IMG/VR virus record: IMGVR_UViG_2744054628_000007
DNA from: a virus
Taxonomy: Duplodnaviria; Heunggongvirae; Uroviricota; Caudoviricetes
Direction: 5' to 3' (one strand)
DNA: 4,879 bases
Below the pieces are notes generated by a model. That model did not search any database. It was not told the origin of the DNA and saw nothing but the letters and a program-made list of their open reading frames with translations. Below, piece by piece: positions 1 to 4,879 of this stretch. A program made the translations under genes and the position numbers. The first letter of the stretch is position 1, and each line of letters begins with the position of its first letter.

Positions 1-184
1 CATCAAAGCAGTCTGTCAGTCAGTGCGTGAAGCCACCACCGCCTCCGGCGTGGATAATGCAGCCTCCCCCCGACTGGCAGACACCGCTGAACGGGATTAT
101 TTCACCCTCCGGGAACGACTGGTAATGATGCAGGCCCAACTTGAAGGTGCTCAGCAATACATAACCGAGCAGTGTTTAAAGTAA
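1..184 (+). CDS. rzpR: Rz-family i-spanin (phage lysis), 3' end only; the gene starts upstream of the window
   Basis: Codons read from nt 2 give IKAVCQSVREATTASGVDNAASPRLADTAERDYFTLRERLVMMQAQLEGAQQYITEQCLK, with the TAA stop at 182-184. From memory this is nearly identical to the C-terminus of lambda Rz. The position immediately upstream of trkG matches rzpR of the Rac prophage. Confidence 0.9.
   Translation, partial: IKAVCQSVREATTASGVDNAASPRLADTAERDYFTLRERLVMMQAQLEGAQQYITEQCLK
3..125 (+). CDS. rzoR: Rz1-family o-spanin lipoprotein, 3' end only, nested out of frame inside the Rz gene
   Basis: Codons read from nt 3 give SKQSVSQCVKPPPPPAWIMQPPPDWQTPLNGIISPSGNDW, with the TAA stop at 123-125. 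The proline-rich sequence matches my memory of lambda Rz1 (…QCVKPPPPPAWIMQPPPDWQTPLNGIISPS…). The nested +1 arrangement is the classic Rz/Rz1 architecture. Confidence 0.85.
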   Translation, partial: SKQSVSQCVKPPPPPAWIMQPPPDWQTPLNGIISPSGNDW

Positions 185-321
185 AATCTTAACTACAATA
201 TGATTCATTTTGATGATTGTTTCATAAGGAACAGTGAAGTAAGATCTAAGAGGAGTTAAATTTTATACAGTATAATCATAATATTGCAGCAAGGTGGTTA
301 TAATTGAAAGAATATTTAGAT
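185..321 (+). promoter_or_regulatory. AT-rich upstream region of trkG with candidate -10 hexamers and a ribosome-binding site
   Basis: Two perfect TATAAT hexamers lie at 271-276 and 299-304, and AAGGTGG lies at 291-297. I found no convincing -35 at 17-nt spacing, so the promoter assignment is tentative. Confidence 0.3.
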
Positions 322-1779
322 ATGAATACATCTCATGTAAGAGTTGTTACTCATATGTGTGGGTTCCTGGTTTGGCTCTATAGTCTTTCAATGTTGCCAC
401 CAATGGTTGTAGCATTGTTTTATAAAGAAAAAAGCCTGTTCGTTTTCTTTATAACTTTCGTTATATTTTTTTGCATTGGTGGCGGAGCGTGGTATACAAC
501 TAAGAAATCTGGCATTCAATTACGTACCCGTGATGGGTTTATTATAATTGTAATGTTTTGGATTTTGTTTTCTGTTATTAGTGCATTCCCTTTATGGATT
601 GACTCAGAACTTAATTTAACGTTCATTGATGCTCTGTTTGAAGGGGTTTCTGGAATAACAACAACAGGAGCAACTGTAATTGATGATGTTAGTTCATTAC
701 CTCGGGCATATTTGTACTATCGGTCACAGTTAAATTTTATAGGTGGTTTAGGAGTTATTGTTCTGGCGGTTGCTGTATTGCCATTATTGGGTATTGGTGG
801 TGCAAAGCTTTATCAGTCAGAAATGCCGGGGCCATTTAAGGATGACAAACTCACTCCCCGCCTGGCCGATACGTCACGGACACTGTGGATAACTTATTCT
901 TTATTAGGTATTGCTTGTATTGTCTGTTATAGACTTGCAGGAATGCCTTTGTTTGATGCTATTTGTCACGGGATTTCCACAGTTTCGCTTGGTGGTTTCT
1001 CAACTCATAGCGAGAGTATCGGATATTTTAATAACTATTTGGTTGAGCTGGTGGCTGGTTCTTTTTCCCTGCTATCGGCTTTCAACTTCACTCTTTGGTA
1101 TATTGTTATTAGCAGGAAAACGATAAAACCTTTAATCAGAGATATTGAACTTCGTTTCTTTCTGTTAATAGCCTTAGGGGTGATCATTGTTACCTCTTTC
1201 CAGGTCTGGCATATAGGTATGTATGACTTGCATGGAAGTTTTATTCATTCGTTTTTTCTTGCCAGCTCCATGCTCACTGATAATGGTTTAGCTACGCAGG
1301 ATTATGCAAGTTGGCCCACGCACACGATAGTGTTTTTGCTGTTGTCAAGTTTCTTTGGGGGATGTATAGGTTCAACTTGTGGTGGAATTAAGTCACTTCG
1401 ATTTCTTATACTTTTCAAACAAAGCAAACACGAGATAAATCAGCTTTCTCATCCCAGAGCGTTGTTGAGTGTAAATGTAGGAGGGAAGATAGTTACAGAT
1501 CGTGTAATGAGGTCTGTATGGAGTTTCTTTTTTCTTTATACTCTCTTCACGGTGTTTTTTATACTGGTGTTAAATGGTATGGGATATGATTTTCTTACAT
1601 CATTTGCAACAGTGGCTGCATGTATTAATAATATGGGATTAGGTTTTGGGGCTACTGCATCGTCATTCGGAGTGCTTAATGACATTGCAAAATGTTTAAT
1701 GTGCATAGCTATGATTCTTGGTCGCCTTGAAATTTATCCTGTTATTATATTGTTTTCAGGTTTTTTTTGGCGCTCCTAA
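322..1779 (+). CDS. trkG: Trk-system K+ uptake membrane protein TrkG (TrkH/TrkG family), a prophage-borne moron
   Basis: The 485-aa product from ATG 322 (MNTSHVRVVTHMCGFLVW…FFWRS) is recognised as E. coli Rac-prophage TrkG. It is a polytopic membrane protein with four P-loop-like segments typical of TrkH/KtrB: GVSGITTTGAT, STVSLGGFST, MLTDNGLAT and INNMGLGFG. An in-frame TTG at 304 with a better Shine-Dalgarno (SD) sequence is an alternative start. Confidence 0.96.
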   Translation: MNTSHVRVVTHMCGFLVWLYSLSMLPPMVVALFYKEKSLFVFFITFVIFFCIGGGAWYTTKKSGIQLRTRDGFIIIVMFWILFSVISAFPLWIDSELNLTFIDALFEGVSGITTTGATVIDDVSSLPRAYLYYRSQLNFIGGLGVIVLAVAVLPLLGIGGAKLYQSEMPGPFKDDKLTPRLADTSRTLWITYSLLGIACIVCYRLAGMPLFDAICHGISTVSLGGFSTHSESIGYFNNYLVELVAGSFSLLSAFNFTLWYIVISRKTIKPLIRDIELRFFLLIALGVIIVTSFQVWHIGMYDLHGSFIHSFFLASSMLTDNGLATQDYASWPTHTIVFLLLSSFFGGCIGSTCGGIKSLRFLILFKQSKHEINQLSHPRALLSVNVGGKIVTDRVMRSVWSFFFLYTLFTVFFILVLNGMGYDFLTSFATVAACINNMGLGFGATASSFGVLNDIAKCLMCIAMILGRLEIYPVIILFSGFFWRS

Positions 1780-1865
1780 TATATGGCTGATTTATAATTG
1801 TGAGTTTAATATTATGTTGACTCACTCATTGATCCAATACCTAACTTTACCAGCAACACCTCCGT

Positions 1866-1900
1866 CCCCAGTAGCACTGGCTGCTGGGGTGCGTTTTATT
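1866..1900 (+). terminator. Rho-independent terminator-like hairpin downstream of trkG
   Basis: CCCCAGTAGC (1866-1875), loop ACTG, GCTGCTGGGG (1880-1889) form a 10-bp stem with one G-U pair. The hairpin is followed by TGCGTTTTATT, with the T-run at 1894-1897. It lies 87 nt after the trkG stop and 17 nt before the next ATG. Confidence 0.6.
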
Positions 1901-1916
1901 CATAAAGCAAGGCTGT

Positions 1917-2708
1917 ATGAGCGAGAAATTAAAGATAGTCTATCGCCCATTACAAGAATTGTCACCGTATGCGCACAACGCCAGGACGCACAGTACTGAG
2001 CAGGTGGCACAACTGGTAGAAAGTATTAAGCAATTCGGCTGGACTAATCCGGTGCTGATTGACGAAAAGGGCGAAATTATTGCGGGTCACGGTCGTGTTA
2101 TGGCGGCTGAAATGCTCAAAATGGATTCTGTTCCGGTCATTGTTCTGTCTGGCCTGACGGATGAGCAGAAAAAGGCGTACCGCCTGGCAGATAATCGCCT
2201 GCCGATGAATGCTGGCTGGGATGAAGATCTGTTGCGGATGGAGCTGTCGGACCTAATCAATGCTGATTTTGATGTCTCCCTGACAGGCTTCATCCCGACA
2301 GAAATTGATGAACTGTTGACGGATGTTTTGCCCGGTACAGGAAATGAGGAGGAGCCGTATACGACGAAAATTGATACGCCTGTTTATGAGCCGTCGGGCG
2401 GTAAACCGGATATCAGTGAACTGTACGACGATACGAAAACTCAGGAGCTGATCAGCCGGATACGTTCGGCGTCCCTTGAGCCTGATATTGAGAAATTCCT
2501 CCTGTGTGCGGCAGAACGTCACACGGTGTTTAATTTCAGCAGAATTGCGGACTATTACGCTCACGCCCCCTCTGAAATTCAGTGTTTTTTCGAGGAGTCG
2601 GCGCTGGTGATCATTGATTATCAGCAGGCTATTGAAAATGGATTTGTCCGGATGACGCAGCGCATGGTGGAGATCATGCATGGTGGTGAGGAGGAGGAAT
2701 ATGCGTGA
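1917..2708 (+). CDS. ynaK: ParB/Srx N-terminal-domain protein (ParB-like nuclease/NTPase fold) with an uncharacterised C-terminal domain; apparently the full-length form of the Rac ynaK locus
   Basis: The 263-aa ORF has a ParB-N pattern across its N-terminal ~135 aa: LSPYAHNARTH, SIKQFGWTNPVLID, IIAGHGRVMAAEML, RLADNR, W, and TGFIPTEIDELL. The gene symbol is assigned by synteny only (directly downstream of trkG, as in K-12 Rac, where I recall ynaK being much shorter). Residues ~135-263 carry no motif I recognise and end in an acidic tail, GGEEEEYA. Confidence 0.8.
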   Translation: MSEKLKIVYRPLQELSPYAHNARTHSTEQVAQLVESIKQFGWTNPVLIDEKGEIIAGHGRVMAAEMLKMDSVPVIVLSGLTDEQKKAYRLADNRLPMNAGWDEDLLRMELSDLINADFDVSLTGFIPTEIDELLTDVLPGTGNEEEPYTTKIDTPVYEPSGGKPDISELYDDTKTQELISRIRSASLEPDIEKFLLCAAERHTVFNFSRIADYYAHAPSEIQCFFEESALVIIDYQQAIENGFVRMTQRMVEIMHGGEEEEYA

Positions 2709-3633
2709 TGATTTTTGCGCCTTTATTCTGACTCACGGGCGACCGGACAAAGTTCTGACTTACCGGACGTTGCGTCGTGCTGGCTATACCGGGAAAATTT
2801 TTATCGTTGTTGATGATGAAGATAAGACACGGCATCAGTACATGGCTGAATTTGGTGAACAGGTGCTGGTGTTTTCCAAAGCCGATATCGCCAGTCGTTT
2901 TGACGAAGCCGATAATTTCTGTGACCGCCGCTCAATTTTTTACGCCCGTAATGCCTGTTTCGACCTGGCAAAACTGGTCGGGTGTAAATACTTCATTCAG
3001 CTCGATGATGATTATCACGAGTTCCAGTTTCGGGTGGATCGCAACTATGACCAGGCCTATTTTCCGATAAGGAAACTGGATGCGATCCTTTCTGAAATGC
3101 TGGCGTACTACGAATCAATACCTGCTCTTTCCATCGCTATGTCGCAGGGCGGGGATTTTCTTGGTGACAATGGCGGCCATGCTTCGTGGGTGAAACGCAA
3201 GGCAATGAACAGCTTTATCTGTTCGGTTGATCGACCGTTCTCATTCATGGGGCGCATTAACGAGGATGTGAATACGTACACGAATCTCGGTCGCTGTGGT
3301 GAATTGTTTATGACGATCGGTGCTGTCCAGTTAGGGCAGAAACAGACGCAGAAAAACAGCGGCGGAATGACCGAGCTGTATCTGGATTCCGGAACCTACG
3401 TTAAAAGTTTTTACTCCGTCATGTATGCGCCGTCGTGCGTAAAAATCTCACTGATGGGTGCCAGCCATAAACGCATTCACCATCAGGTCACCTGGAACAA
3501 CGCTGCAGTAAAAATCCTTCACGAAAAATACAGGAAGAAGACACCCTGCATATCAATGGGGGTGACAAATGATTCCGTATTCGAAAGTCGAGTCTCTGGC
3601 AGCGTGCCGGATGACTGCACAACAAATCGCTGA
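2701..3633 (+). CDS. Uncharacterised soluble protein with GT-A-like (DxD) nucleotide-sugar transferase signatures; putative glycosyltransferase
   Basis: The 310-aa product from ATG 2701 is preferred over ATG 2680 because GAGGAGGAGG at 2688-2697 is a strong SD. The start overlaps the upstream stop by 8 nt (ATGCGTGA). Motifs: CAFILTHGRPD (res 6-16), KIFIVVDDED (res 32-41), FIQLDDDY (res 98-105, nt 3004-3012 = DDD) and INEDVN (res 186-191). No long hydrophobic segment is present. By position it corresponds to the K-12 Rac ydaY pseudogene locus (from memory). The fold assignment is inferred from motif pattern and spacing, not from a search. Confidence 0.6.
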   Translation: MRDDFCAFILTHGRPDKVLTYRTLRRAGYTGKIFIVVDDEDKTRHQYMAEFGEQVLVFSKADIASRFDEADNFCDRRSIFYARNACFDLAKLVGCKYFIQLDDDYHEFQFRVDRNYDQAYFPIRKLDAILSEMLAYYESIPALSIAMSQGGDFLGDNGGHASWVKRKAMNSFICSVDRPFSFMGRINEDVNTYTNLGRCGELFMTIGAVQLGQKQTQKNSGGMTELYLDSGTYVKSFYSVMYAPSCVKISLMGASHKRIHHQVTWNNAAVKILHEKYRKKTPCISMGVTNDSVFESRVSGSVPDDCTTNR

Positions 3634-3820
3634 CGTTCTGGATGTTGATCTGAACCGACTGAAAGAAAATCGGGAAGCAATGACAGATTTTTATGCGGCC
3701 ATCCGTAAGGGCAGAGCGAAAGGTGAAGCCGAGTTACGAGCGGCATTGTTTAAGCTTGCCAGAAAAGGGGATGCCTTTGCTCTGCGCGAACTACTCAGGG
3801 TGGATAAAAATCAGGACTAA
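3569..3820 (+). CDS. Small helix-turn-helix protein, terminase small-subunit-like / packaging-associated DNA-binding protein
   Basis: The 83-aa ORF has GGGGGTGA (3558-3565) ahead of ATG 3569. The pattern ESLAACRMTAQQIADVLDV…FYAAIRKGRAKGEAELRAALFKLARKGDAFALRELL resembles the HTH plus helical repeat seen in small phage terminase-associated proteins. It ends 3 nt before the terminase ORF. An alternative start is ATG 3611. Confidence 0.6.
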   Translation: MIPYSKVESLAACRMTAQQIADVLDVDLNRLKENREAMTDFYAAIRKGRAKGEAELRAALFKLARKGDAFALRELLRVDKNQD

Positions 3821-3823
3821 CTG

Positions 3824-4810
3824 ATGAGCAGACCGGACTGGGGGGCGTTGCAGCAGGAGTATATTGCTGAATACACCCGCTCCGGTATATCTCCGGTGGC
3901 ATGGTGTGAAGCAAGGGGACTGAATTACGCAACAGCCCGTCGTTACATCAAAAAAACTCCGAAAAATGCGCAGACAGAAATGTGCAAAACTGCGCAAAAA
4001 AGTGCGCAGAAAAAATCTGCGCAGACTGCACAAAAGCGGAACGAAAAATCTCAGGAAAAAAAGCCAGTATTCGATGCGGGCCTGAATGAGGGCGACGCGG
4101 AGGAATTTTCGTTCTGTCCCGATGAATTCGGCATTTCTGACCAGCAGGCTAAGTTTGCGATGCTTGTTGCTCAGGGTAAAAAGCCGACATGCAAGGGGAT
4201 TTGGGAGCATCCAGGTATAAATCAGGGATATTTTGCGCCAACGTATCCCCAAATTCGCGATATTTTTTACCCTACAGTGGAAGAAGTTGCTGCTGACTGG
4301 GGATTGAACGTAAAAATTAATGAGGGAAATAAAGAGGTTCACTTTTATTACGGACGCCAGTATCGGGGAACCACTATCTGCAGATCGATGGAGAAGCCAC
4401 AAACGATCGTCGGTTTCAAAATTGGTAATGCGTTGGTGGATGAACTGGACATTTTGCCGAAGGAAAAAGCCAGAACGGCGTGGCGCAAGATAATTGCACG
4501 TATGCGTTATAAGATTGATGGACTTCGCAACGGTATTGACGTTACAACCACGCCGGAAGGATTCAAATTTGTCTACGAGCAGTTTGTTAAAGCCGTGCGT
4601 GAAAAAACAGAGCTGGCCTCACTGTATGGTCTGGTGCAGGCATCTACTTTCGATAATGAAAAGAACCTGCCAGCAGATTACATTCCTTCGCTTCTTGAAT
4701 CATACCCTCCAGAGCTGATTAAAGCCTATCTTCGAGGACAGTTTACTAACCTGACAAGTGGTACTGTTTACCTGATCTTACCCAGCAATAGTGGACACGC
4801 GGCTAAGTGA
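3824..4810 (+). pseudogene. Phage terminase gene remnant: TerS-like HTH N-terminus joined to a TerL ATPase core, truncated by IS3 (the last 38 nt of the ORF are IS3 sequence)
   Basis: The N-terminus (MSRPDWGALQQEYIAEYTRSGISPVAWCEARGLNYATARRYIKK, plus ISDQQAKFAMLVAQGK) resembles a terminase small subunit. From about residue 135 the sequence shows TerL ATPase features: YFAPTYPQIRDIF, Walker B ALVDELD (nt 4430-4450) and TTTPEG (nt 4544-4561). No GxxxxGK[ST] Walker A is present anywhere. The phage-derived reading frame ends at nt 4772 (…TSGTVY) and continues into the IS3 inverted repeat (LILPSNSGHAAK, stop at 4808-4810). No nuclease domain lies within the window. Confidence 0.75.
3950..4063. repeat. 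Phased array of palindromic TGCGCA hexamers interleaved with A-tracts, inside the terminase ORF
   Basis: Perfect TGCGCA hexamers start at 3967, 3991, 4003 and 4018. One-mismatch copies are TGTGCA at 3981 and TGCACA at 4027. Successive spacings are 14, 10, 12, 15 and 9 nt. A-runs of 4-7 nt lie between them and flank the array, for example at 3950-3956, 3962-3966, 3996-4001, 4010-4015 and 4055-4062. The region encodes the peptide repeat NAQTE/TAQKS/AQKKS/AQTAQK. Confidence 0.7.
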
Positions 4811-4879
4811 GTAAACTCTCAGTCAGAGGTGACTCACATGACAAAAACAGTATCAACCAGTAAAAAACCCCGTAAACAG
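4773..4879 (+). mobile_element. IS3 left end (IRL plus the start of orfA), continuing beyond the window
   Basis: From memory, the sequence from 4773 (TGATCTTACCCAGCAATAGTGGACACGCGGCTAAGTGAGTAAACTCTCAGTCAGAGGTGACTCACATGACAAAAACAG…) is the left terminus of E. coli IS3, starting with the TGATC terminal inverted repeat. Confidence 0.92.
4838..4879 (+). CDS. insE: IS3 transposase OrfA (InsE), first 14 codons only
   Basis: ATG at 4838 is preceded by GAGGTGA (4826-4832). The translation MTKTVSTSKKPRKQ matches the N-terminus of IS3 InsE as I remember it. Confidence 0.9.
   Translation, partial: MTKTVSTSKKPRKQ

What the first reader, a model, noticed from the sequence alone, without database searches (positions are those of the whole stretch)
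2319..2708. Uncharacterised ~130-aa C-terminal domain occupies the place of the methyltransferase in a ParB-N protein
After the TGFIPTEIDELL boundary that normally leads into a DNA methylase domain, the protein continues with TDVLPGTGNEEEPYTTKIDTPVYEPSGGKPDISELYDD…EKFLLCAAERHTVFNFSRIADYYAHAPSEIQCFFEESALVIIDYQQAIENGFVRM and ends with GGEEEEYA. I recognise no catalytic or binding motif in this stretch. It could be an adaptor that recruits the downstream GT-A-like enzyme, or a sensor domain.
Basis: inference. Interest (0 to 1): 0.5.

Follow-up and report, generated by a model that had tools for sequence, protein, structure and literature searches.

The report
Partner domain of a phage glycosyltransferase
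The unexplained C-terminal half of this prophage ParB-like protein (full-length E. coli YnaK) is a widespread, unnamed protein module that is almost always encoded directly in front of one type of DNA-modifying-class sugar transferase, so it is most likely that enzyme's partner subunit rather than a stray tail.

Summary
Window 2319-2708 encodes residues 135-263 of a 263-aa ParB/Srx-N protein, the full-length YnaK of a defective Rac-like E. coli prophage. It starts where ParB-methyltransferase fusions continue into their methylase.

The region is a real, autonomous domain:
- It matches 1190 protein clusters (50% identity).
- It has no Pfam or NCBIfam model.

The domain comes in two forms. One is fused to ParB-N, as here. 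The other is a standalone ~132-aa protein.

In 252 loci from bacteria, phages and an archaeal virus, a TAGT glycosyltransferase (PF20691) lies directly downstream in 236 and within 1 kb in 11. After dereplication all 113 informative clusters have it. Start and stop codons overlap in 97 of these.

Fused forms sit before terminase genes. Standalone forms sit among replication genes and start with a QxxLF motif that resembles a beta-clamp-binding motif.

No TET/JBP or hydroxymethylase gene recurs nearby.

Best reading: an acidic adaptor/activator subunit that couples a basic TAGT to a DNA-tracking module. Binding, the sugar acceptor and the role of DNA are all inferred, not shown. This would be a new variant of the known ParB-assisted phage DNA-modification theme.

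The parts
1917..2708 (+). Full-length ynaK-type gene, 263 aa: ParB/Srx N-domain, linker and C-terminal partner domain (CTD).
   Evidence: ORF list. RefSeq CDS WP_001291105.1 in the identical ETEC H10407 locus. phrog_620 E 1e-90 over aa 1-250.
1917..2201 (+). ParB/Srx nucleotide-binding-type core (aa 1-95), with GHGR (2085-2096) in place of GERR and ADNR (2187-2198) in place of ENxxR.
   Evidence: Pfam PF02195. phmmer alignment to Spo0J 1vz0 and ParB 4umk. AF2 pLDDT about 80-93. Foldseek hits to Noc 7nfu, ParB 6sdk and 7bnk, PadC 6ryk and KorB 8qa9 at E 1e-6 to 1e-4.
2202..2318 (+). Helical extension of the ParB-N module (aa 96-134), ending in the LTGFIPTEIDELL boundary (2280-2318) shared with ParB-methyltransferase fusions.
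   Evidence: Helices 103-115, 120-123 and 127-134 in the AF2 model. phrog_498 and PADLOC MTase_II profiles match up to aa 141-144.
2319..2357 (+). Acidic disordered linker (aa 135-147).
   Evidence: pLDDT below 50 for residues 137-153 in the full-length model. Length and sequence vary in the alignment.
2358..2393 (+). Conserved linear motif YTTKIDTPVYEP (aa 148-159; family consensus Y-[TS]-x-K-[IV]-x-x-P-x-Y-E-P). A candidate partner-binding segment or, less likely, an acceptor segment.
   Evidence: Y148 and Y157 are invariant; K151, P155, E158 and P159 are at least 90% conserved. The monomer model gives low to intermediate pLDDT, 53-81.
2394..2597 (+). CTD helical core (aa 160-227): four helices containing FLxxAAxRH and IADYYAH.
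2598..2654 (+). SALVIIDYQQAIENGFVRM (aa 228-246), the most conserved stretch of the family. It is predicted with only moderate confidence, so it is a candidate interface strand plus helix.
   Evidence: L, V, I, I and D are invariant and S, A nearly so. pLDDT falls to 60-79.
2655..2708 (+). Variable acidic tail (aa 247-263) and stop codon. The codons GGTGGTGAGGAGGAGGAA (2682-2699) double as the Shine-Dalgarno sequence of the next gene.
   Evidence: Sequence. pLDDT below 50.
2701..3633 (+). TAGT-family GT-A glycosyltransferase (310 aa from the RefSeq start). It overlaps ynaK by 8 nt (ATGCGTGA). Motifs: R (THGRPD, 2731-2748), DDD (3001-3015) and ED (NEDV, 3259-3270).
   Evidence: Pfam PF20691 E 3.8e-35; phrog_842 E 7e-104. 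RefSeq start. Motif positions. The R...DDD...ED[Y/F] motif of phage and JGT GT-A DNA glycosyltransferases is described in bioRxiv 10.1101/2023.12.21.572611.

Best explanation
Residues 135-263 of YnaK form an autonomous, acidic, mostly helical domain, here called the CTD. I propose it is the dedicated partner subunit of one clade of TAGT (TET-associated-type, GT-A) glycosyltransferases. Three things are shown. It is a conserved module. It occurs either fused to a ParB/Srx N-domain or as a standalone ~132-aa protein. It is practically always encoded immediately upstream of a TAGT gene and translationally coupled to it. The rest is inferred. The CTD would bind the basic TAGT through its helical core and its two conserved but poorly self-folding segments (YTxKIxxPxYEP and SALVIIDxxxAIxxGF). 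It would then activate or position the enzyme. The part attached to its N-terminus would supply the tether to DNA. In the packaging-module version, as in this window, the tether is a ParB-type NTP-binding, clamp-like domain, which is the same module that is fused directly to DNA methylases in other phages. In the replication-module version, the tether is a short N-terminal QxxLF peptide that resembles a beta-sliding-clamp-binding motif. The likely result is post-replicative glycosylation of phage DNA late in infection, just before or during packaging. No TET/JBP or hydroxymethylase gene is in sight, so the acceptor is unknown.
For: (1) Autonomy. About 40% of dereplicated homologues are standalone proteins of about 130 aa (40 of 113 clusters; examples).

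(2) Synteny. A TAGT gene lies directly downstream in 236 of 252 loci and within 1 kb in 11. Of the 5 loci without one, 3 end at a contig edge. At 80% identity dereplication, 107 of 113 clusters have TAGT adjacent and 6 of 113 have it within 1 kb. Stop and start codons overlap in 97 of 113. In the window the overlap is 8 nt, with the Shine-Dalgarno sequence inside the CTD tail.

(3) Breadth. The pair occurs in E. coli and Salmonella prophages, 191-kb Vibrio phages, Lactobacillus phages c5, phiLdb and jlb1, Nocardia phage NTR1 and the archaeal virus HHTV-2. It also occurs in MAGs from many phyla.

(4) Reciprocity. Of the 36 phage records with this TAGT clade, 28 contain a CTD detectable by tblastn. 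The exceptions are the decayed or truncated TAGT loci of Ld17, LL-Ku and Ld25A, and two Porphyromonas phages. Their divergent TAGT (27% identity) is preceded by a ParB-like protein with a correspondingly divergent CTD (HMM E 1e-14).

(5) Inserted genes. When a gene sits between the CTD and TAGT genes, it encodes sugar-activation or tailoring chemistry: His_Phos_1 plus cytidylyltransferase (once fused to the CTD protein itself), or a SAM methyltransferase.

(6) Charge. CTD median pI is 4.95; TAGT median pI is 8.75.

(7) Structure prediction. The most conserved segments are the least confidently folded in the monomer, as expected for interface elements.

(8) Context split. Fused forms have TerL within four genes in 45 of 73 clusters, against 4 of 40 for standalone forms (Fisher p 5e-8). 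Replication genes are nearby in 2 of 73 fused clusters against 15 of 40 standalone (p 2e-6). A phage beta-clamp gene is nearby in 4 of 40 standalone clusters.

(9) QxxLF motif. Qxx[LMIF]F occurs in the N-terminal head of 32 of 40 dereplicated standalone forms, and in 66 of 91 in the protein set.

(10) Precedent. A ParB-like protein with a nucleotide-binding domain, a linker and a C-terminal domain, but no DNA-binding domain, activates a phage DNA dioxygenase specifically on dsDNA (PMC13229309). YnaK has the same layout and the same closest solved structures.
Against: - No direct test of CTD-TAGT binding was possible, because only single chains can be modelled here.
- The mirror-tree correlation of CTD and TAGT distances is only modest (r 0.34 overall, 0.48 in standalone forms). 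The distances are saturated.
- The acceptor is unknown. No 5hmC or 5hmU pathway lies in the E. coli prophage stretch or in the complete 31.8-kb genome of phage c5, and TAGTs are so far known to act on hydroxymethyl-pyrimidine DNA or glucosyl-5hmC.
- The GREB1 TAGT domain glycosylates a protein (abstract of PMC7968844), so DNA is not assured as the target.
- The ParB-N domain has GHGR instead of GERR and lacks an HTH, so clamp behaviour and NTP use are unproven. ParB-fold proteins bind various NTPs or none (PMC12704722).
- MAFFT aligns the standalone KQxNLFG with the fused EIDELL helix. The motif may therefore be a remnant of the ParB-N boundary rather than a clamp-binding motif.
Confidence: 0.55

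Rival explanations
1. The CTD is simply the dimerisation (clamp-closing) domain of an orphan ParB-type NTPase, as in canonical ParB. The TAGT gene is just a neighbour in the same late operon.
For: It occupies the position of the ParB C-terminal dimerisation domain. The CTD of the 5mYOX-associated ParB176 is required for function. The conserved SALVIID strand-like segment is poorly folded in a monomer, which would fit a dimer interface.
Against: Forty of 113 clusters are standalone proteins without any ParB-N domain. Only 6 of those 40 have a separate ParB-N ORF within 6 kb. Even so, all keep the TAGT gene directly downstream. There is no sequence or fold similarity to known ParB C-terminal domains. 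Dimerisation could coexist with the adaptor role.
Confidence: 0.13
2. The CTD protein is the acceptor of the glycosyltransferase, a self-contained glycoprotein or primer in the manner of glycogenin. It would be glycosylated on the invariant Tyr or Thr residues of the disordered YTxKIxxPxYEP motif.
For: Y148 and Y157 are invariant, and a conserved Thr or Ser lies in an exposed, poorly ordered segment. The GREB1 TAGT domain O-glycosylates a protein (abstract of PMC7968844). No nucleobase precursor pathway is nearby. Variable sugar-activation and tailoring genes are nearby.
Against: This does not explain fusion to a DNA-associated ParB-N module, nor the placement in packaging or replication modules. 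The TAGT keeps the R...DDD...ED motifs described for DNA-modifying phage GT-A enzymes and JGT, although those motifs are general catalytic motifs.
Confidence: 0.12
3. The CTD is a negative regulator or timing device. An acidic, DNA-mimicking cap would occupy the basic DNA groove of TAGT until the ParB-N or clamp tether delivers the enzyme to DNA.
For: Acidic CTD against basic TAGT. Translational coupling implies 1:1 synthesis.
Against: There is no toxin-antitoxin-like signature. Conservation at about 45-50% identity from archaeal viruses to E. coli suggests a structural partnership rather than a simple mimic. This rival cannot be separated from the activator model by sequence alone.
Confidence: 0.1
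4. The CTD is a small-molecule or signal sensor domain that controls the ParB-N NTPase.
For: None beyond its position next to an NTP-binding fold.
Against: No similarity to any ligand-binding fold. Standalone forms lack the NTPase. The only constant associate is TAGT.
Confidence: 0.03

Closest known systems
5mYOX-associated ParB activators of phage thymine dioxygenases (e.g. ParB176; PNAS 2026, PMC13229309)
   Same: Both have a ParB nucleotide-binding domain, a short helical segment, a disordered linker and a C-terminal domain, with no HTH DNA-binding domain. Both are encoded next to a post-replicative DNA-modifying enzyme in phage genomes, often near terminase. Noc, PadC and MxParB are the closest solved structures of both.
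   Different: The partner here is a TAGT glycosyltransferase, not a dioxygenase, and no TET/JBP gene recurs nearby. The CTD here is about 105-130 aa and also exists as a standalone protein. ParB176 is 194 aa in total, so its C-terminal domain must be much shorter. Homology of the two C-terminal domains could not be tested, because the ParB176 sequence is not held.
ParB-N / DNA methyltransferase fusion proteins of phages and prophages (phrog_498; PADLOC MTase_II PDLC03229)
   Same: The N-terminal ~140 residues, up to the LTGF...EIDELL boundary, are the same module (E 9e-51 and 1.5e-38).
   Different: The methylase domain is absent. In its place is the CTD, and the catalytic activity (TAGT) is on a separate, translationally coupled polypeptide.
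TAGT family PF20691, including the T2/T6 beta-glucosyl-HMC-alpha-glucosyltransferase and the TET-associated GT-A DNA glycosyltransferases
   Same: The downstream gene is a confident member (E 3.8e-35) and carries the R...DDD...ED motifs. T6-type phages use a TAGT to add a second glucose to glucosyl-5hmC (PMC13390438).
   Different: This clade has an obligate upstream CTD gene, and no TET/JBP or hydroxymethylase gene is in its neighbourhood. T-even-type TAGTs were not retrieved at the tblastn threshold, so this looks like a distinct clade.
Canonical chromosome- and plasmid-partition ParB (Spo0J, Noc, KorB)
   Same: The fold of the N-domain and a retained Box-II arginine. Conceptually, KorB clamps a partner protein (KorA) on DNA (cited in PMC13229309).
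   Different: There is no HTH/parS-binding domain, no ParA gene, no similarity of the C-terminal domain, and GHGR replaces GERR.
Beta-sliding-clamp-binding motif proteins (QL[SD]LF class, e.g. UmuC QLNLF, Pol II QLGLF). This comparison rests on my own knowledge of the motif literature (Dalrymple et al. 2001), not on a retrieved paper.
   Same: Standalone CTD proteins begin M-K-Q-x-[NSD]-[LM]-F-G. They lie in replication modules, four of which carry a phage beta-clamp gene.
   Different: The window's protein has no such motif; it has ParB-N instead. Binding is untested, and an alternative alignment to the EIDELL helix exists.

Membership tests
ParB/Srx N-terminal domain superfamily (N-terminal half of the protein) | Profile match above the curated cut-off | tested here: met
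   PF02195 scores 29.3 bits against a 26.3 cut-off, over aa 23-90.
ParB/Srx N-terminal domain superfamily (N-terminal half of the protein) | ParB-CTPase-type fold | tested here: met
   Foldseek of the AF2 model hits Noc 7nfu, ParB 6sdk and 7bnk, PadC 6ryk and KorB 8qa9 at E 1e-6 to 1e-4 over about 136 residues.
ParB/Srx N-terminal domain superfamily (N-terminal half of the protein) | Box II GxxR arginine and Box III asparagine | tested here: met
   GHGR (aa 57-60) aligns to GERR and ADN(R) aligns to VEN of Spo0J. The glutamate of GERR is replaced by His.
ParB/Srx N-terminal domain superfamily (N-terminal half of the protein) | NTP binding or hydrolysis | not testable with these tools
   This needs DRaCALA or ITC. 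ParB folds bind CTP, ATP, GTP or nothing (PMC12704722).
Canonical partition ParB (ParABS) | Central HTH/parS-binding domain | tested here: not met
   There is no HTH profile hit. TIGR00180 scores 38 bits against a 58.45 cut-off and covers only aa 11-94. The model shows only two short helices after the N-domain.
Canonical partition ParB (ParABS) | Adjacent parA gene | tested here: not met
   No ParA is annotated in the 25.9-kb stretch of the identical H10407 prophage.
Canonical partition ParB (ParABS) | C-terminal dimerisation domain of ParB type | tested here: not met
ParB-N DNA methyltransferase fusions | ParB-N module up to the LTGF...E(I/L)D.LL boundary | tested here: met
   phrog_498 covers aa 3-141 and PADLOC MTase_II covers aa 10-144.
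ParB-N DNA methyltransferase fusions | SAM-dependent DNA methylase domain | tested here: not met
   No methylase Pfam hit. The profile matches stop at positions 171 of 633 and 151 of 436.
5mYOX-associated ParB activators (PMC13229309) | Architecture of nucleotide-binding domain, helix-helix, disordered linker and C-terminal domain, with no DNA-binding domain | tested here: met
   The AF2 model is confident for residues 1-134, has pLDDT<50 for 137-153, and has a confident CTD core at 160-229. The comparison is with the description.
5mYOX-associated ParB activators (PMC13229309) | Cognate TET/JBP-family dioxygenase encoded nearby | tested here: not met
   None among the annotated genes of the E. 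coli prophage stretch or the complete phage c5 genome. None among the recurrent neighbour clusters scanned with Pfam. Singleton occurrences cannot be excluded.
5mYOX-associated ParB activators (PMC13229309) | Homologous C-terminal domain | not testable with these tools
   ParB176 and related sequences are not held. The motif ALVIID is absent from the preprint's supplements.
TAGT (PF20691), downstream gene | Profile match and GT-A catalytic motifs | tested here: met
   E 3.8e-35 over aa 15-229 of the 317-aa ORF. THGRPD, LDDDY and NEDV are present (motif description).
TAGT (PF20691), downstream gene | Association with TET/JBP or a hydroxymethyl-pyrimidine pathway (the family's namesake context) | tested here: not met
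Beta-clamp-binding-motif proteins (standalone relatives only) | Terminal QxxLF-type pentapeptide | tested here: met
   Present in 32 of 40 dereplicated standalone forms, and in 66 of 91 in the protein set. It is not present in the window's fused protein.
Beta-clamp-binding-motif proteins (standalone relatives only) | Binding to the beta clamp | not testable with these tools
   This needs a peptide-clamp binding assay or multimer modelling.

The most novel reading that the evidence does not exclude
The CTD and TAGT form a self-sufficient two-protein DNA glycosylation system that works without TET/JBP or hydroxymethylase priming. It would therefore act on a canonical base, a host-methylated base, or another unrecognised acceptor. 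The CTD would be a universal adaptor that plugs the enzyme into interchangeable DNA sliding platforms: a ParB-type NTP clamp at packaging, or the replisome beta clamp through an N-terminal QxxLF motif. The system would be present in about one in six to one in three complete E. coli genomes and in viruses of bacteria and archaea.
Probability: 0.2. Interest if true: 0.85.

Novelty: new variant of a known kind. Interest (0 to 1): 0.62.

Why it matters
ParB-fold proteins were recently shown to activate a phage DNA dioxygenase, and surveys of ParB fusions rely on Pfam domains. This domain has no Pfam model, so YnaK-type proteins look like bare orphan ParBs in those surveys.

Recognising the C-terminal region as a separate module that always travels with one TAGT clade has three consequences:
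- It defines a two-gene cassette that can be tested directly in E. coli.
- It gives a rationale for why some phage glycosyltransferases may be inactive when expressed alone.
- It suggests a general design in which a catalytic subunit, an adaptor and an exchangeable DNA tether are combined.

It also points to a possible unrecognised DNA or protein glycosylation in common E. coli prophages and in dairy Lactobacillus phages that lack any hydroxymethyl-pyrimidine pathway.

Tried and rejected
1. Curated libraries. Pfam, NCBIfam and PADLOC give no hit for residues 135-263. The weak Pfam Phage_Gene47 hit (E 0.1, 20 residues) was dismissed as noise.

3. Natural CTD-TAGT fusion as a 'Rosetta stone'. 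Only a frameshift fragment (P0008) was found. The 560-aa ORF of L084 turned out to be ParB-N plus CTD plus His-phosphatase plus cytidylyltransferase, not a TAGT fusion.

4. Mirror-tree co-evolution. The signal is weak (r 0.34) because distances are saturated. I treat it as inconclusive.

5. DNA-binding role for the CTD. Rejected as unlikely because the domain is acidic across the family.

6. Recurrent TET/JBP or thymidylate-synthase-like neighbours. None were found among the cluster representatives scanned. The 150-protein scan lists only its top 25 families, so rare cases may be hidden.

7. Literature. Searches for ynaK and for TAGT plus ParB found no description of this domain or pair. Iyer et al. 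2013 (PMC3763556), which may discuss ParB-TAGT operons, is not held.

8. The antisense 142-aa ORF at 2253-2681 was not pursued. All homology and conservation lie in the + strand frame.
Full report
**What is in the window**

The window is a piece of a Rac-like lambdoid prophage of E. coli. In order it holds:
- trkG (304-1779; Pfam TrkH)
- a 263-aa ParB-N protein (1917-2708)
- a TAGT-family glycosyltransferase (RefSeq start 2701, end 3633)
- a small terminase-like ORF
- a terminase gene

Bases 1-4189 are identical to ETEC H10407. There RefSeq annotates the 263-aa protein as 'ParB/Srx family N-terminal domain-containing protein', and other genomes name it ynaK. In that prophage the pair lies between the lysis cassette (plus the trkG moron) and the terminase genes, so it belongs to the late region. 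The 1861-bp ynaK-TAGT region occurs in 1610 of 5426 complete E. coli genomes, and 902 hold at least 80% of it.

**Checking the observation**

The quoted peptide strings are present at the stated coordinates. The first ~140 residues match three profiles:
- Pfam ParB_N
- the N-terminal part of the 'DNA methyltransferase' family phrog_498 (E 9e-51, aa 3-141 against profile positions 31-171 of 633)
- the PADLOC type II methyltransferase model (E 1.5e-38, aa 10-144 against positions 13-151 of 436)

No methylase domain follows. The statement that the C-terminal region occupies the place of the methylase is therefore correct.

Residues 135-263 have no hit in Pfam, NCBIfam or PADLOC. They are covered only by phrog_620, a whole-protein family called 'ParB-like partition protein'.

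**The region is a real domain**

An exhaustive HMMER search with residues 135-263 alone found 1190 clusters (50% identity) at E<=1e-3 and 1001 at E<=1e-10. Across 103 homologues, eight columns are invariant and 28 are at least 90% conserved.

AF2 was run on the region alone and on the full-length protein. Both give a confident four-helix core (pLDDT 87-98, aa ~160-227). Before it lies a disordered acidic linker (aa 137-153, pLDDT<50). After it lies a less confident segment.

Two of the most conserved stretches are among the least confidently folded parts in the monomer:
- YTTKIDTPVYEP (aa 148-159)
- SALVIIDYQQAIENGFVRM (aa 228-246)

That pattern is what one expects of segments that fold on a partner or in an oligomer. 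This is my inference.

The fold has no recognisable relative:
- A profile search of PDB sequences gives nothing below E 0.27.
- Foldseek against viral predicted structures returns only two family members, one fused (262 aa) and one standalone (130 aa).

The full-length model's structural neighbours all align to the N-domain only. They are Noc, ParB-CDP/CTPgS, PadC and KorB.

**Two architectures**

Many homologues are standalone proteins of about 130-138 aa, 45-60% identical to the window's domain. In 252 fetched loci, dereplicated at 80% CTD identity into 113 informative clusters, the split is:
- 71 clusters with ParB-N plus CTD
- 2 clusters with a divergent ParB/Srx-like N-domain
- 40 standalone clusters

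Rare variants exist, such as a double ParB-N. In another, ParB-N plus CTD is fused to a histidine phosphatase and a cytidylyltransferase.

**The constant companion is TAGT**

The first three standalone homologues I located, in unrelated metagenomic phage contigs, were each followed immediately by a PF20691 (TAGT) gene.

I then extended the sample with two IMG/VR scans, one GTDB scan and cultured phage records. Local HMMs for the CTD, TAGT and ParB-N gave these counts over 252 loci:
- TAGT directly downstream on the same strand in 236
- TAGT within 1 kb in 11
- no TAGT in 5, of which 3 end at the contig edge and one is an E. coli deletion variant

At the level of dereplicated clusters, 107 of 113 are adjacent, 6 of 113 are within 1 kb, and none lacks TAGT.

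The TAGT start codon overlaps the end of the CTD gene in 97 of 113 clusters, typically by 8-14 nt. In the window the overlap is ATGCGTGA. The codons of the acidic tail (GGTGGTGAGGAGGAGGAA) form the Shine-Dalgarno sequence for TAGT.

Where a gene is inserted between the two, it encodes one of the following:
- a histidine phosphatase plus cytidylyltransferase
- a cytidylyltransferase alone
- a SAM-dependent methyltransferase of the small-molecule type

Other recurrent accessories are a second tandem TAGT, radical-SAM proteins and sugar-nucleotide enzymes (GLF, epimerase/dehydratase).

The association also holds in reverse. Of the 36 phage records with this TAGT clade, 28 have a CTD detectable by tblastn. 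The remaining records are of two kinds:
- Decayed or truncated TAGT loci in Ld17, LL-Ku and Ld25A.
- Two Porphyromonas phages. Their 27%-identical TAGT is preceded by a ParB-like protein carrying a divergent CTD (HMM E 1e-14).

**Breadth**

The pair occurs in:
- E. coli and Salmonella prophages
- 191-kb Vibrio phages
- Lactobacillus delbrueckii and L. gasseri phages
- Nocardia phage NTR1
- the haloarchaeal virus HHTV-2
- MAGs of Bacteroidota, Firmicutes, Proteobacteria, Verrucomicrobiota, CPR and other phyla

**Context differs by architecture**

| Feature within four genes | Fused forms | Standalone forms | Fisher p |
|---|---|---|---|
| Large terminase | 45 of 73 | 4 of 40 | 5e-8 |
| Replication genes (DnaB, primase-helicase, Pol A, beta clamp) | 2 of 73 | 15 of 40 | 2e-6 |

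A further 9 standalone clusters have a DnaD-like loader nearby. Four standalone clusters have a phage beta-clamp gene nearby.

Standalone proteins begin with a conserved M-K-Q-x-[NSD]-[LM]-F-G. Qxx[LMIF]F is present in the N-terminal head of 32 of 40 dereplicated forms, and in 66 of 91 in the protein set. From my own knowledge of the QL[SD]LF class (UmuC QLNLF, for example), this resembles a beta-clamp-binding motif. That is a lead, not a result. MAFFT places the motif opposite the EIDELL helix of the fused forms, which allows a different reading.

**Mechanism proposed**

Three things are shown: an autonomous conserved module, strict translationally coupled pairing with one TAGT clade, and exchangeable N-terminal appendages that correlate with packaging or replication context.

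The rest is inferred:
- The acidic CTD (median pI 4.95) binds the basic TAGT (median pI 8.75).
- The CTD links the enzyme to a DNA-associated platform.
- The enzyme glycosylates phage DNA post-replicatively.

Three published findings support this reading:
- A phage ParB-like protein with a nucleotide-binding domain, linker and C-terminal domain, but no DNA-binding domain, activates its cognate thymine dioxygenase specifically on dsDNA. Both its nucleotide-binding and C-terminal domains are required (PMC13229309).
- An older proposal holds that ParB domains direct DNA-modification enzymes during packaging. It is quoted in PMC8256090.
- TAGT enzymes modify DNA in T6-type phages (PMC13390438).

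The window's TAGT keeps the R...DDD...ED motifs described for phage GT-A DNA glycosyltransferases and JGT.

**What does not fit, or is unknown**

- No TET/JBP, thymidylate-synthase-type hydroxymethylase or other base-priming gene is annotated in the 25.9-kb stretch of the E. coli prophage, or in the complete 31.8-kb genome of Lactobacillus phage c5. None recurs among the neighbour clusters scanned. The acceptor is therefore unknown. It could be DNA without hydroxymethyl priming, a protein, or the CTD itself.
- The GREB1 TAGT domain glycosylates a protein (abstract of PMC7968844).
- The ParB-N domain has GHGR in place of GERR, and its NTP use is untested. ParB folds bind different NTPs or none (PMC12704722).
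- The mirror-tree signal between CTD and TAGT is weak.
- Complex formation could not be modelled with the tools available.

**Comparison with what is known**

The closest functional analogue is the 5mYOX-associated ParB activator. The closest sequence relatives of the N-terminal half are ParB-methyltransferase fusions. The C-terminal domain itself has no named relative.

The 2025 survey of ParB-CTPase fusions was Pfam-based. It mentions neither glycosyltransferases nor YnaK. A domain without a Pfam model would have escaped it; that is my inference. I found no paper describing this domain or the CTD-TAGT pair. Iyer et al. 2013, which introduced TAGT and the ParB idea, could not be read here.

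**Verdict**

I classify it as a new variant of a known kind: accessory-protein-assisted phage DNA modification, using a previously undescribed adaptor domain. Interest is 0.62. It would be higher if the cassette proves to glycosylate DNA without TET or hydroxymethylase priming.

Noticed in passing
window 3824-4879 (junction at 4189; IS3 from about 4773): The prophage in the window is defective. Compared with ETEC H10407 it has an 825-bp deletion that fuses the 'terminase small subunit' ORF in frame to the large terminase. This explains the odd ORF with an HTH and a Terminase_6N domain. The last ~107 bases are the left end of an IS3 element inserted in the terminase gene.
   Followed up: yes
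window 2682-2708: The acidic tail of YnaK (GGEEEEYA) is encoded by GGTGGTGAGGAGGAGGAATATGCGTGA. This stretch contains the Shine-Dalgarno sequence and the ATG of the TAGT gene, with an 8-nt overlap. The tail's composition may be constrained by translational coupling rather than by protein function.
   Followed up: partly
window 304-1779 versus 1917 onwards: trkG has a much lower G+C content (0.33-0.40) than the flanking phage genes (0.47-0.50). This fits a moron acquired between the lysis cassette and the packaging genes.
   Followed up: no
window 3569-3820: An 83-aa ORF overlaps the 3' end of TAGT by 65 nt. It matches only the C-terminal part of a small-terminase PHROG (phrog_309 positions 145-218). 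RefSeq calls a shorter 69-aa hypothetical protein here.
   Followed up: no
L084 5578-7260; L078 2942-3895; L088 6326-7321; L168 867-1814: In a group of metagenomic phages a histidine phosphatase plus cytidylyltransferase-like protein sits between the CTD gene and TAGT. In L084 it is fused to the ParB-N plus CTD protein in a single 560-aa ORF. This suggests a phage-made nucleotide-activated donor.
   Followed up: partly
L237 7215-8093, L189 571-2001 and four other clusters: A second TAGT paralogue lies next to the CTD-TAGT pair. In some cases it has a ~190-aa N-terminal extension. This hints at a di- or oligosaccharide product, as with the two-step glucosylation in T6-type phages.
   Followed up: no
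one search hit list (e.g. P0337, P0377, P0369, P0349): Many E. coli database proteins are chimeras of the YnaK N-terminal ~165 residues with Lom, terminase or other prophage proteins. They reflect recurrent deletions in Rac-like prophages. The short K-12 ynaK is, from my own knowledge, one such remnant.
   Followed up: no
L253 2636-4418 (Porphyromonas phage005b): A divergent ParB-N plus CTD protein and a divergent TAGT (27% identity to the window's TAGT) keep the same overlapping arrangement upstream of terminase. The two partners have diverged together.
   Followed up: yes
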